A DNA stretch of 60,523 nt from Escherichia phage TL-2011c. Location of the stretch: sequence record JQ011318; one strand, given 5' to 3'. Positions 48,001 to 51,000 of the stretch are shown here, piece after piece. Every line of letters begins with the position of its first letter. The first letter of the stretch is position 1. Made by a program: the position numbers.

Positions 48001-51000
48001 AGGCCTGATGTGGAAAGGCCCCGAGTCAACTTAACGTTAACCCGAGGCCCTAACACTTCGTACCTTAAGCAAGTAGAAGGTTAGCGCCTCTCTGTAAAAG
48101 GAGTCAAGCGCTATGCCGCAAAAAACGATCATAGTCAGCATTTTATGCATAACTATTTTGATGATTGTCTGGATGATACACAACTCTCACTGTGAGTTCA
48201 GACTTAACATCATGTGGTCACAATTTGCGGCGTTCTTACAGTGTAAGCAGTAGGAAAACCGCGACGGGGACGAAAGTCCCCGTCAACTGGTTGCTGAGGT
48301 TCAGTCGATATGGCACCCGTTTCAGGTGAGAGAATGAACGATAAAATTCTCCGGTATATGCAGCGTGTGGTGAGAAATTCCCGCAACCCTGAATTTATGA
48401 ATGAAGTTAAAGACGCCTGCCTTAAAAAGCAGGCGTTTTGTTTTGAGGCACCTGATGGCTTTCTGGTGCTGCGTTCTGTTCTCAGTGCTGATGGTATCCC
48501 TTATGTTCTGGTGTTGCTGGGCGTGTGTACGGGGAGTAACAGCGTTGAGCGTTATCTGCCGGAGGTGAAGACATTAACCCGTCTGGCTGGCGGACGCTGG
48601 GCTGAATTTCATACGGCAAGGCGGGGATTTATCCGGCTGGGAAAACGTCTGGGCTTTGAGCGAATGCCGGATGATGAGGATGGCTTCATGGTGTTCAGGA
48701 TAGCGGTCTGACTGCTACAGTTTTCATCATTGTGTTTAAACCAACATTGTAATTCACATTCTGACCCTGCTCCGGCAGGGTTTTTTGTTATCCAGGGGGC
48801 CATTATGGGTGGAAGTAAAGGCGGTGGTGATACCAAAGTAAAACCAACAGCAGCGCAAATAGCACAGGAAGAAGTGGCCTGGAAAGGGTGGCAGGATTAT
48901 CAAAAAATCCTCCGCCCGGCTGAAGATAACTTCATGGAAAAGGTCGATGACCTGAACAGTGAGCAGCAGTACGACAATATTGCTGGCACCACAAATCTGG
49001 GGTATCAGAAACAGTTTGGCGAAGCACGGAAGGAGCTGGCGGGTAATCTTGCTCAGTCCGGTGTTGACCCGTCCAGTGGTCGCTTTAACGCGGTAATGAA
49101 TGCGAACCAGAGTGATCAGGTAACCGGGCAGATTGACACAACCACACGGGGGCAGGTATCGCAGGCAGATAAGTATGTTGCCGGGCTACAGGATGTTGCA
49201 GCTCTCGGTTCTGGTCAGAAGGCGGATGCGTTACAGAGTTTTAACTCGCTGGCAGACAGCAGTCTGGCAAAAGCTAAATCGGATGCACAGGCGGCGTTTA
49301 CGAAACAGCAGGGGCGAGCCTCTCTTGTTGGCGCTGGTCTGGGTGCGGCAGGTGCATATGCGATGCATAAGGCTGGCGGTAGCGGAGGAAGTGGCGGTGC
49401 TAAAACACCTGGCACTGGCGCTAATGCCATTCAGCATCAGGCTCAGAACTGGAGACTGTGATTATGGAGTACGGTAAATACGAAACACTTGCAAGATACG
49501 GTTATACCGGAGCAGCCCGCCCTCAGGGGGACTGGCAGACATCCGCAGCGCTGACCCGCCAGCAATACGACGACTGGCGCACCAGATATTTACCCCGTGT
49601 AGCAAGGCTGGCTGACCTTGGGGAGAACAACAGTCTGATGAATGCACAGCTTGCACGGGTGGGAGGCCTTGCCACTTCCAGTCTCCGTACAGCGCAGATG
49701 GCGCAGGATAACCAGATGGCGAGATACGGGGTAAGCCGCCCGGATAATCCCGACAGTAATACGCTGGGGTTACGTAATGCCCTGGCAATTGCTGGCGCGA
49801 AAAATGGTATCCGTGAAGCCGAACAGGATCGCCAGATGAACATACTGACGGGGGCTTCTGCACCTGCAAGACAACAACTGAGTGTTGGCGGTCAAATGAT
49901 GACAGCGTAAGGGGGAAGATATGGGGTACGGCTTACTGGATATTGCGAATCAGTCACGGCGTGAGGCATTACAGGGAATAAGTGACGCAGACCGACGACG
50001 TGAAGAAATTGAGGCTGCGAACAAACAGATGGCGGCGCAACAGAAAGCGCAGAACAAGCAGAATATCGGTACGGGCATTGGTACGGGGGCGGCTATTGGC
50101 GCATCCGTTGGTGGTCCTGTTGGTGCTGTTGCTGGTGCAGTAATTGGCGGCATTGCTGGTTCTTTGTTTTAAGGAGTGGTGAATGAGCGGATTTGCACAG
50201 GGGTTACTTGCCGGATTCAGCACCGTTGACCAGGCAATGACCCGTCGTAAGGAGCTTGGTCTGCGTGAAGCACAGCTTGCCCGGCAACAGAAAAATAACG
50301 AGCGCGATTTTGAGTTTGCGCAGTCTCAGTTTGAACATAATAAAAACGTTGATCAGCGGAACTTTGATTACAGAGCCAAAGTTGACGACCGTAATTATGC
50401 ACTGAAGGAAAGGGAGTTTAACGCTAACCAGAATTACCGGAATGCGTCACTGGGTATGGAGCAGCAGCGACTCCAGTTGCAGAAATACAACCAGCGACGG
50501 CTTGAGTATAACGATATGATTGCCCATAGCCAGCCACTAATGGAAGCGCTTGGAAAAGCAATTGAGGCTGGCGATCAGGAGGCTGCAACGCGTCTGTTCG
50601 GGCAGCTGCCAAAGGGACATCCATTAATTCTTATGTCAAACGAAGGCTATGCAGCGAAAGCGGGTCAGGCCGTGATCAACCTGCAAAAAATCTTTGGTGA
50701 TAAGCCGGACATGGCGATCGATTCGCTGAATACCCCGGAAAATCTCGATGTGCTTTCCGGCGTGTTTGCCCCGGAACTACAACAGCGTATTGGCATGCCT
50801 GATTCAACCGGGGACAAAACGATAAAAGAGGCCAGGATTGGCAGTATCGTACCAGCGCAGCAGGAAGGGTACGTACTTATTGGCCTTGATCTCACATACA
50901 GCGATGGCTCCACCGCGCATAAACCTGTAACAGAATACGGCAGTGCGCACCCTGATGATCAAACCGTGCTGGCGATACCCGTTGATAAGGCTATCGCTCA

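What the first reader, a model, noticed from the sequence alone, without database searches (positions are those of the whole stretch)
48113..48284. Hok/Gef-like small toxin ORF in a terminator-bounded moron block next to lom
A 46-aa ORF with a strong RBS encodes MPQK-TM helix-HCEFRLN...FAAF, resembling Hok-family type I toxins (ICITIL identical to HokB, CE(I/F)R, (V/F)AAF). A 9-bp-stem GNRA hairpin follows immediately. It lies between the lom terminator (47904-47928) and another terminator (48765-48787), together with a 125-aa unknown ORF. It would be missed by a 60-aa ORF cutoff and may be a type I toxin-antitoxin locus acting in prophage maintenance or abortive infection.
Basis: partly seen in the sequence, partly recalled or inferred. 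Interest (0 to 1): 0.55.

Follow-up and report, generated by a model that had tools for sequence, protein, structure and literature searches.

The report
Hok toxin locus beside phage lom
The small ORF is a real Hok-family membrane-toxin gene with the RNA architecture of a hok/sok toxin-antitoxin module, and its antisense RNA is the published Shiga-toxin-phage "microRNA-like" 24B_1 RNA, which the three 24B_1 papers read here never link to a toxin.

Summary
Window 48113-48253 (+) encodes a 46-aa peptide behind an AAGGAG site. It passes Pfam HOK_GEF (24.4 bits, cut-off 22) and phrog_251 (E 7e-20). RefSeq calls homologues "Hok/Gef family protein" in 1644 of 5426 E. coli genomes.

The window is a 933W-like Stx phage. 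Around the ORF lies a complete hok-type mRNA:
- a promoter, with the mRNA 5' end near 47964;
- 5' GGGUGCC pairing with 3' GGCACCC (48312-48318);
- a sequestered ribosome-binding site and AUG;
- a conserved 3' hairpin.

Covariation across 59 distinct homologous sequences supports the fold. All 63 unique copies keep the ORF (dN/dS about 0.26).

It differs from classical hok/sok: no mok frame, 46 rather than about 50 aa, and no terminator after the fold-back element. It is not the characterised hokW-sokW, which survives here only as a remnant near 60066-60210.

The predicted antisense promoter (TTGACT/TAACCT, minus strand) and RNA are those published for phage Φ24B as p24B_1 and the 80-nt "24B_1" precursor. 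Mature 24B_1 maps exactly to 48039-48020 (minus). The 24B_1 papers read never mention hok or sok, and their "overproduction" plasmid carries the whole locus, Hok ORF included.

Verdict: new member of a known kind. Toxicity and antitoxin action are untested.

The parts
47904..47928 (+). lom terminator, the upstream boundary of the block
   Evidence: The terminator scan finds a stem at 47904-47922 followed by a T-run.
47929..47957 (+). Predicted hok promoter: -35 TTGCCC 47929-47934, 17-nt spacer, -10 TAAATT 47952-47957
   Evidence: Read from the sequence. The hexamers (TTGCnn / TAnATT) and their spacing are kept in P2-type and island copies while the spacer diverges. The match is 8/12, below the scan tool's threshold. 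No transcript start was mapped.
47964..47970 (+). Predicted hok mRNA 5' end and tac-like element GGGUGCC
   Evidence: Rfam RF01794 model position 1 aligns here. It pairs with 48312-48318 in the MFE with probability about 1.0. The element is nearly invariant.
47973..47980 (+). 5' arm of the fold-back extension, pairing with 48301-48308
   Evidence: Helix 2: 93.6% of cells paired, 4 of 8 pairs with compensatory changes.
47989..48069 (-). Sok-like cis-antisense RNA, the published 80/81-nt '24B_1 precursor'
   Evidence: The published RT-PCR primers were placed on the window sequence by reading (Φ24B carries a few substitutions and one gap here; primers, sequences); their exact positions in the Φ24B record were computed. 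The conserved hairpin appears. Hfq binds the precursor with Kd 25 nM (PMC10732415). The RNA is fully complementary to the hok 5' UTR.
48020..48039 (-). Mature 20-nt 24B_1 sequence TAACGTTAAGTTGACTCGGG
   Evidence: One exact match in the window, on the minus strand. The sequence comes from PMC4426718.
48078..48107 (-). Sok-like promoter (published p24B_1): -35 TTGACT 48107-48102, 18-nt spacer, -10 TAACCT 48083-48078
   Evidence: Read from the sequence. AGGTTAGCGCCTC is invariant or nearly so in 59 distinct homologues. The same boxes are named in PMC4426718. The arrangement matches sokC relative to the hokC ribosome-binding site.
48098..48103 (+). hok Shine-Dalgarno AAGGAG, sequestered in a local hairpin (48083-48087/48108-48112 and 48090-48093/48100-48103)
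   Evidence: Seen in the MFE. The helices are 99.7% and 92.8% paired across homologues.
48113..48253 (+). hok-family toxin ORF, 46 aa
   Evidence: Kyte-Doolittle hydropathy peaks at 2.5 for residues 5-23.
48224..48233 (+). UUUGCGGCGU (the FAAF codons), pairing with the AUG region 48113-48122
   Evidence: A 10-bp helix in the MFE. It is 97.6% paired with 7 of 10 pairs invariant.
48263..48284 (+). Conserved 3' hairpin after the stop codon
   Evidence: 99.4% paired, with 5 of 9 pairs showing compensatory changes.
48287..48300 (+). 3' UTR arm pairing with the antisense-target region 48062-48076
   Evidence: Helix 6: 87.5% paired, 5 of 13 pairs compensatory. Window coordinates.
48301..48318 (+). 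fbi-like fold-back element: GGCACCC 48312-48318 plus the extension 48301-48308
   Evidence: Distant E. coli copies stop matching exactly here (query position 389 = window 48318).
48334..48711 (+). Downstream 125-aa ORF of unknown function (phrog_610; L0129 / vb_24B_43 homologue), probably co-transcribed with hok
   Evidence: No terminator-like site lies between the fbi and this ORF.
48763..48787 (+). Terminator, the downstream boundary of the block
   Evidence: Terminator scan.

Best explanation
This is a hok/sok-type type I toxin-antitoxin module carried as cargo by a 933W-like Shiga-toxin phage.

Shown from sequence and comparison:
- A 46-aa Hok-family peptide has an N-terminal transmembrane helix.
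- It is encoded on an mRNA that starts near 47964.
- The 5' end (GGGUGCC) pairs with a 3' element (GGCACCC, 48312-18).
- The ribosome-binding site and the AUG are both base-paired.
- The antisense-target region (48062-76) is paired to the 3' UTR.
- A minus-strand promoter overlapping the hok ribosome-binding region drives a roughly 65-80-nt antisense RNA (48069 to 47989), complementary to the 5' UTR.
- That antisense RNA is identical in sequence and promoter to the published 24B_1 precursor of phage Φ24B.

Inferred by analogy with R1 hok/sok and Sp5 hokW-sokW:
- The full-length mRNA is translationally inert.
- Loss of the 3' fold-back element lets the 5' end refold into a local hairpin (47964-74 with 48013-22), exposing the antisense target and the ribosome-binding site.
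- The unstable antisense RNA then pairs with the leader and causes decay or translational silencing.
- When antisense supply stops (phage loss, or prophage induction as for hokW), Hok is made, inserts in the inner membrane, and collapses membrane potential and ATP.

Because no mok frame exists here, silencing must act on the hok mRNA fold or its stability rather than through translational coupling.
For: Family membership:
- Pfam HOK_GEF is above its cut-off, and for four allele types.
- NCBIfam HokA/Hok models are the best hits.
- phrog_251 E 7e-20.
- PGAP names homologues 'Hok/Gef family protein' in 1644 genomes.

RNA architecture:
- The Rfam hok-leader model RF01794 hits 47964-48124 at E 4.7e-6. 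The orientation is the same as in the K-12 hokC/sokC control.
- The MFE is -144.7 kcal/mol, z = -7.5, and tac-fbi pair probabilities are about 1.0.
- On 59 distinct homologues, 87% of cells are paired, against 35-46% when partners are slid.
- 27 pairs show compensatory changes, against 19.8 in shuffles (0/500).
- The alternative 5' hairpin is 99.5% paired.

Coding conservation: the ORF is intact in all 63 unique units, with dN/dS 0.26.

Antisense RNA:
- Its promoter core is invariant.
- The 24B_1 reads map exactly.
- The published promoter boxes are identical to those derived here.
- The precursor binds Hfq, as sokW partly needs Hfq.
Against: - No expression, toxicity or antitoxin test exists for this Hok subfamily.
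- The Rfam hit is below the gathering score (36 against 59 bits), and the NCBIfam hits are below their cut-offs.
- No mok frame is present, so the classical mechanism cannot apply as described.
- No terminator follows the fbi in the phage copies, so the real 3' end and the processing route are unknown.
- tac and fbi themselves are nearly invariant, so their pairing rests on conservation and on covariation in the adjacent helix.
- In Φ24B the 80-nt product was seen 80 min after induction but not at time 0. That is not what a constitutively abundant antitoxin predicts.
- That RT-PCR is not described as strand-specific in the methods section read; the reverse-transcription subsection was not read.
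- This allele has His at position 26, where relatives have Pro or Leu.
Confidence: 0.8

Rival explanations
1. The locus works mainly as the gene of a trans-acting, microRNA-like small RNA (24B_1), as published. The RNA is said to regulate the d_ant antirepressor and host sdhB. On this view the Hok ORF is incidental or silent.
For: - PMC4426718 reports 2223 reads of the 20-mer, and a 189-nt deletion that changes lysogenisation, induction and burst, complemented from a plasmid.
- The abstract of PMC10732415 states that 24B_1 acts by binding sdhB mRNA, and the paper reports lower ATP; the sdhB section itself was not read.
Against: - The deletion (window 47913-48101) also removes the hok promoter, the whole hok 5' UTR, most of the ribosome-binding site and half of the lom terminator.
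- The complementing and 'overproducing' plasmid insert (window 47801-48366) carries the complete hok locus with the toxin ORF.
- The experiments therefore do not separate the small RNA from the toxin module.
- The ORF is under purifying selection and the hok mRNA fold is conserved, which a silent passenger would not show.
- The two readings are not mutually exclusive.
Confidence: 0.12
2. The module is a decaying relic. The peptide is no longer toxic, or is never translated, and it persists only because it is linked to lom and the tail genes.
For: - Several chromosomal hok loci of E. coli K-12 are inactivated (established knowledge, Pedersen and Gerdes 1999, from memory).
- The second hok locus of this very window (hokW type, near 60066-60210) is a broken remnant.
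- mok is missing.
Against: - The 45-46-codon ORF is intact in all 63 unique units, with 23 distinct proteins and dN/dS 0.26.
- The regulatory RNA elements are nearly invariant while the coding core is swapped between alleles.
- The unit is present in three unrelated genomic contexts.
Confidence: 0.06
3. The ORF is a chance open frame in an intergenic region and the hairpin is simply a terminator.
For: The ORF is short (46 codons), and the original 933W and Φ24B annotations leave it out.
Against: The profile hits, the conservation in 1644 genomes and the purifying selection all argue against it. The hairpin also lacks a T-run on the plus strand.
Confidence: 0.01

Closest known systems
hok/sok (parB) of plasmid R1 and the chromosomal hokC/mokC/sokC of E. 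coli K-12
   Same: - A Hok-family peptide (PF01848).
- An mRNA leader recognised by the same Rfam model, in the same orientation.
- A 5'-3' fold-back.
- An antisense RNA gene inside the leader, whose -35 box overlaps the complement of the hok ribosome-binding region.
- An antisense RNA built from a single-stranded 5' tail and a long hairpin.
   Different: - There is no mok reading frame. The GAGG site that precedes the mokC AUG is kept, but no start codon follows it.
- The peptide is 46 aa and only 24-28% identical to HokC and HokB.
- The Rfam and NCBIfam scores are below their curated cut-offs.
- In the phage copies no terminator follows the fold-back element, and a 125-aa ORF starts there instead.
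hokW-sokW of Sakai prophage 5 (Takada et al. 2021, PMC8621323)
   Same: It is a hok/sok-type module carried by the same family of Stx2 phages. For hokW, toxicity, antitoxin action, partial Hfq and RNase III dependence, and Hok production on prophage induction have been shown.
   Different: It is a different gene at a different place. HokW is 51 aa (MKQQKAM...VFVDYESEK, from the primers) and of the HokC/HokD type. In this window the hokW-type locus is only a remnant with an internal deletion on the minus strand near 60066-60210. The post-lom locus has not been tested experimentally as a toxin-antitoxin pair.
24B_1 'microRNA-size' RNA of Stx phage Φ24B (PMC4426718, PMC10732415)
   Same: The sequence, strand, promoter boxes and position between lom and vb_24B_43 are identical. 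The leader differs between Φ24B and the window only in the antisense 5'-tail region.
   Different: It was published as a trans-acting miRNA-like regulator. The words hok, sok and antitoxin occur in neither of the two primary papers; the 2025 review lacks hok and sok, and its only 'antitoxin' is in a cited title. No paper in the searchable library joins the two. Here it is read as the cis-antisense partner of an unannotated Hok gene. Φ24B carries the 933W allele of that gene at 45784-45924.
HokA (NCBIfam NF007290)
   Same: It is the best-scoring NCBIfam model, matched over residues 1-45 (38 bits, E 1.3e-9).
   Different: The score is far below the equivalog cut-off of 89 bits. It is a separate 46-aa subfamily.

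Membership tests
Hok/Gef toxin family (Pfam PF01848) | Profile match at or above the curated gathering score | tested here: met
   24.4 bits against a cut-off of 22, E 2.2e-5, residues 9-44. All 4 allele types match, best E 4e-8. phrog_251 E 7e-20.
Hok/Gef toxin family (Pfam PF01848) | Peptide of about 50 aa with one N-terminal transmembrane helix and a polar C-terminal part with a conserved Cys | tested here: met
   46 aa. Kyte-Doolittle 19-residue mean peaks at 2.5 for residues 5-23. C27, E28, R30 and AAFLQCK are invariant across the four allele types of the subfamily aligned. E28 and A39 also align with HokB and HokC.
Hok/Gef toxin family (Pfam PF01848) | Kills or arrests the cell by inner-membrane damage when expressed | not testable with these tools
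   This needs induced expression with viability and membrane-potential assays.
hok/sok type I toxin-antitoxin locus | A cis-encoded antisense RNA gene inside the toxin mRNA leader | tested here: met
   Conserved minus-strand promoter at 48107-48078. Hairpin plus 5' tail. Minus-strand reads from Φ24B map exactly. The position is equivalent to sokC.
hok/sok type I toxin-antitoxin locus | 5'-3' fold-back (tac/fbi) that locks the full-length mRNA | tested here: met
   47964-70 pairs with 48312-18 in the MFE at probability about 1.0, and 95.9% of cells are paired across homologues. The adjacent helix has 4 of 8 compensatory pairs. The alternative local 5' hairpin is 99.5% paired.
hok/sok type I toxin-antitoxin locus | A mok reading frame overlapping hok and translationally coupled to it | tested here: not met
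   No ATG/GTG/TTG-initiated frame overlaps the hok start in the window. Leader ORFs differ in frame and end among homologues. The mokC start position has no start codon here.
hok/sok type I toxin-antitoxin locus | Antisense RNA neutralises the toxin; activation follows 3' processing of the mRNA and decay of the antisense RNA | not testable with these tools
   This needs genetics and RNA half-life measurements.
Rfam RF01794 (sok / hok leader) | Covariance-model score at or above the gathering score | tested here: not met
   36 bits against 59, E 4.7e-6 over 1.7 kb, and absent from the gathering-threshold scan. The hokC control scores 118 bits.
HokA equivalog (NCBIfam NF007290) | Score at or above the curated cut-off | tested here: not met
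   38 bits against 89.
hokW-sokW of Sp5 | The same gene as the characterised HokW (51 aa, MKQQKAM...) | tested here: not met
   The HokW termini from the primers do not match this ORF. The only hokW-like sequence in the window is the remnant near 60066-60210.

The most novel reading that the evidence does not exclude
The Stx-phage RNA 24B_1, presented as the first functional microRNA-size RNA of bacteria, is a fragment of the Sok-type antitoxin of an unrecognised, mok-less hok module. On this reading, some phenotypes now credited to the 'microRNA' are caused by the Hok toxin or by loss of the whole toxin-antitoxin cassette. Those phenotypes are lower ATP, a shift in central metabolism, a bias towards lysogeny and altered induction timing. 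The deletion and the plasmid used in those studies both involve the toxin locus.
Probability: 0.3. Interest if true: 0.7.

Novelty: new member of a known kind. Interest (0 to 1): 0.5.

Why it matters
Stx phages drive the virulence of enterohaemorrhagic E. coli, so what controls their induction and lysis affects toxin release.

This phage family carries a second Hok module that is distinct from hokW-sokW. In this window it is the only intact one. Early phage records (933W, Φ24B) leave it unannotated.

Recognising it gives a simple and testable framework for a decade of 24B_1 results. It also flags that the mutant and the plasmid used in those studies are confounded by a membrane-toxin gene.

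The subfamily is also a natural case of a hok locus without mok. It could show how antisense control works without translational coupling.

Tried and rejected
- A mok-like frame was looked for in two ways: frames spanning the hok AUG and all leader ORFs. None is conserved. The 24-codon GTG ORF 48010-48084 is broken by indels in the P2-type copies.
- I tested whether the ORF is the published hokW. It is not.
- The promoter scan found no site at its 9/12 threshold. Both promoters are 8/12 or weaker by that measure and rest on conservation and on the literature.
- PADLOC gave no hit for Hok or for the 125-aa neighbour.
- Pfam and NCBIfam gave nothing for the 125-aa ORF.
- The species-representative genome scan returned only 5 loci. 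Three carry titles from unrelated taxa and are probably contamination. They added little.
- The word-index protein search reached only close E. coli alleles.
- I looked for translation evidence in EHEC ribosome-profiling papers. The peptide was not found in the supplements held, and the 'sok' entries could not be assigned to this locus.
- The minus-strand terminator-like call on the 3' hairpin was considered and set aside. Conservation of the flanking AAACC is explained by its pairing with 48079-82.
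Full report
**Observation.** The stretch 48113-48253 (+) is an ATG-initiated 46-codon ORF, MPQKTIIVSILCITILMIVWMIHNSHCEFRLNIMWSQFAAFLQCKQ. AAGGAG lies at 48098-48103, 9 nt upstream of the ATG. A 9-bp hairpin with a GAAA loop follows at 48263-48284. Terminator-like sites flank the block at 47904-47922 (after lom) and 48763-48782. The upstream gene is an Ail/Lom protein (Pfam E 1.5e-32). The downstream ORF is 125 aa from ATG 48334, or 133 aa from ATG 48310, and has no known function (phrog_610).

**Identity of the window.** The region is 99.8% identical to Escherichia phage vB_EcoP_phi367. 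It is 94-96% identical to 933W, VT2-Sakai and many Stx-converting phages of the Sepvirinae. Recent Pharokka-annotated records call the ORF "MokW-like host killing". The original 933W and Φ24B records leave it unannotated.

**Is it a Hok?**
- Pfam HOK_GEF scores 24.4 bits against a gathering score of 22.
- Three other allele types of the same 46-aa subfamily also match, best E 4e-8.
- NCBIfam HokA and Hok models are the best hits, but below their cut-offs.
- phrog_251 matches at E 7e-20.
- RefSeq annotates homologous ORFs as "Hok/Gef family protein" in 1644 of 5426 complete E. coli genomes, including EDL933.
- Residues 5-23 form a strongly hydrophobic segment.
- Across 63 unique homologous units from E. 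coli genomes, IMG/VR contigs and a few other genomes, every copy keeps an intact 45-46 codon frame. There are 23 distinct proteins, with median dN/dS 0.26.

The ORF is therefore a conserved, selected coding gene.

**Genomic contexts.** The same unit occurs in three places:
- after lom in Stx phages;
- after ogr at the end of P2-like prophages;
- in an O157 island.

It behaves as a self-contained cassette. DNA similarity to the distant copies spans window 47944-48318 and ends exactly at the 3' fold-back element.

**RNA architecture.**
- *Leader model.* The Rfam model RF01794 hits 47964-48124 (+) at 36 bits, E 4.7e-6, below the gathering score of 59. As a control I ran the K-12 hokC/mokC/sokC locus. 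There the model (118 bits) lies on the hok-sense strand, from the mRNA 5' end to the hokC AUG, and the annotated sokC gene lies antisense inside it. The window hit has the same placement and orientation.
- *Fold-back.* Folding 47964-48322 gives -144.7 kcal/mol, z = -7.5 against dinucleotide shuffles. The 5' GGGUGCC (47964-70) pairs with GGCACCC (48312-18) at probability about 1.0. An adjacent helix, 47973-80 with 48301-08, extends it.
- *Sequestered translation signals.* The ribosome-binding site sits in a local hairpin. The AUG region (48113-22) pairs with UUUGCGGCGU (48224-33, the FAAF codons). The region 48062-76 pairs with the 3' UTR at 48287-300.
- *Refolding.* Removing the 3' end (fold to 48300) refolds the 5' end into a local hairpin, 47964-74 with 48013-22.
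- *Covariation.* On an alignment of 61 homologues (59 distinct), the full-length structure is 87.2% paired, against 35-46% when partners are slid. It has 27 pairs with compensatory changes, against 19.8 in shuffles (0/500). These include 4 of 8 in the fold-back extension, 5 of 13 in the long-range helix and 5 of 9 in the 3' hairpin. The alternative 5' hairpin is 99.5% paired.
- *Limit.* tac and fbi themselves hardly vary, so their pairing rests on conservation rather than covariation.
- *hok promoter.* A predicted promoter (TTGCCC 47929-34, 17 nt, TAAATT 47952-57) sits 7 nt before the 5' end. Its hexamers are kept where the spacer diverges.

**Antisense RNA.**
- On the minus strand, TTGACT (48107-48102) and TAACCT (48083-48078) are 18 nt apart.
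- The -35 box overlaps the complement of the hok ribosome-binding region, as at sokC.
- The block AGGTTAGCGCCTC is invariant or nearly so in all homologues.
- The RNA predicted from this promoter has a variable 5' tail and a conserved long hairpin.
- The 5'-tail and target region is the most variable part of the leader. It holds all but one of the leader differences among the window, 933W and Φ24B. That fits a specificity determinant (inference).

**Link to the literature.** A literature search led to the "microRNA-size" RNA 24B_1 of Stx phage Φ24B, encoded "in the lom-vb_24B_43 region".
- Its 20-nt sequence TAACGTTAAGTTGACTCGGG maps exactly, and only, to window 48039-48020 on the minus strand.
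- The published promoter p24B_1 (-35 TTGACT, -10 CGCTAACCT) is the promoter derived above.
- The published 80/81-nt precursor corresponds to window 48069-47989.
- The precursor binds Hfq with Kd 25 nM, which parallels the partial Hfq dependence of sokW.
- Φ24B has an intact, unannotated 46-aa hok ORF at 45784-45924, of the 933W allele.
- The 2015 and 2023 papers contain none of the words hok, sok or antitoxin. The 2025 review lacks hok and sok, and its single "antitoxin" is in a cited title. No paper in the searchable library joins 24B_1 to hok. Subscription literature could not be searched.
- From the published primers, the Δ24B_1 deletion corresponds to window 47913-48101. It removes the 3' arm of the lom terminator, the hok promoter, the whole hok 5' UTR, the antisense gene and most of the ribosome-binding site. 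It leaves the hok ORF in place.
- The complementing and "overproducing" plasmid insert corresponds to window 47801-48366, that is, the entire module with the toxin ORF.
- The reported drop in ATP in cells carrying that plasmid or the prophage is what leaky production of a membrane-damaging Hok peptide could cause. This is my inference and not a result.

**Differences from classical hok/sok.**
- There is no mok. Where mokC has GAGGCCUCCUAUAUG, the window has GAGGCCCUAACACUUCG. No start-codon frame overlaps the hok AUG. Leader ORFs vary in frame and length among homologues.
- The peptide is 46 aa and 24-28% identical to HokC and HokB.
- In P2-type copies a terminator hairpin follows the fold-back element. 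In the phage copies the 125-aa ORF starts there instead (ATG 48334; an alternative ATG at 48310 overlaps the element), and the next terminator is at 48763. The transcript is therefore probably bicistronic, and its activation route is unknown.

**Relation to hokW-sokW.** The characterised Sp5 module encodes a different 51-aa Hok. In this window only a damaged copy remains on the minus strand near 60066-60210. It has frame disruption and an internal deletion, and it matches hokW-type genes in two pieces. The post-lom module is thus the only intact Hok locus in this phage.

**Allele exchange.** Between the window and 933W/Φ24B the two untranslated regions are almost identical. Codons 2-37 differ at about 40% of positions, and the proteins are 54% identical. 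The borders coincide with the conserved AUG and UUUGCGGCG pairing partners. This looks like a cassette swap between hok alleles by recombination in the conserved RNA elements (inference).

**Verdict.** This is a hok/sok-type type I toxin-antitoxin module of a distinct, mok-less, 46-aa subfamily. It is already named at family level in RefSeq and PHROGs but has not been characterised as a toxin-antitoxin pair. The added value is the identification of its antisense partner with the published 24B_1 RNA, and the consequence for how those experiments are read. Toxicity, antitoxin action and biological role remain to be tested.

Noticed in passing
window 60066-60210 (minus strand): There is a degenerate hokW/hokD-type gene, MKAAKGDVNHPAHLCITVIVTALITKKDLCKGGIPRHL*. 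It has a disrupted N-terminus and an internal deletion that fuses it to the 3' hairpin region. It is identical to the copies in phage P13374 and phi315, and it matches intact hokW-type genes in two pieces. This phage therefore lacks a working hokW-sokW.
   Followed up: partly
window 48116-48223 compared with L002 (933W) and L097 (Φ24B): The hok coding core differs at about 40% of positions between phages whose flanking untranslated regions are nearly identical. This suggests allele (cassette) exchange, with borders in the conserved AUG and UUUGCGGCG RNA-pairing elements.
   Followed up: partly
window 48310-48340: The fold-back element GGCACCC overlaps the alternative ATG (48310) of the downstream 125/133-aa ORF, and no terminator separates hok from that ORF. 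P2-type copies have a terminator about 25 nt after the element. The fold-back might also gate the neighbour's expression.
   Followed up: no
L045 (IMGVR_UViG_2529293141_000015), 5' part of the hok leader: One Stx-phage-like copy has the first ~50 nt of the leader, including the GGGUGCC element, replaced by unrelated sequence. The rest of the unit is intact. It is a natural tac-less variant.
   Followed up: no
window 25752-26011 and 24095-24343: Rfam gathering-level hits to STnc100 (25752-25957, +) and the anti-stx2 sRNA AsxR (25959-26011, -). Three tRNA genes lie at 24095-24343. These are known features of Stx2 phages.
   Followed up: no
window 4647-4732, 5182-5271, 13485-13568 (minus); 14404-14591 (minus): Three copies of the Rfam family sRNA-Xcc1, plus a C4 antisense RNA and an isrK hit next to each other.
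   Followed up: no
Literature: PMC10732415 compared with PMC4426718: The 2023 paper describes plasmid pUC18_24B_1 as bearing 'the 189-nt region'. The 2015 cloning primers span 565-566 bp (window 47801-48366). By my mapping the deletion is 188 nt in the Φ24B record, against the 189 nt stated.
   Followed up: yes
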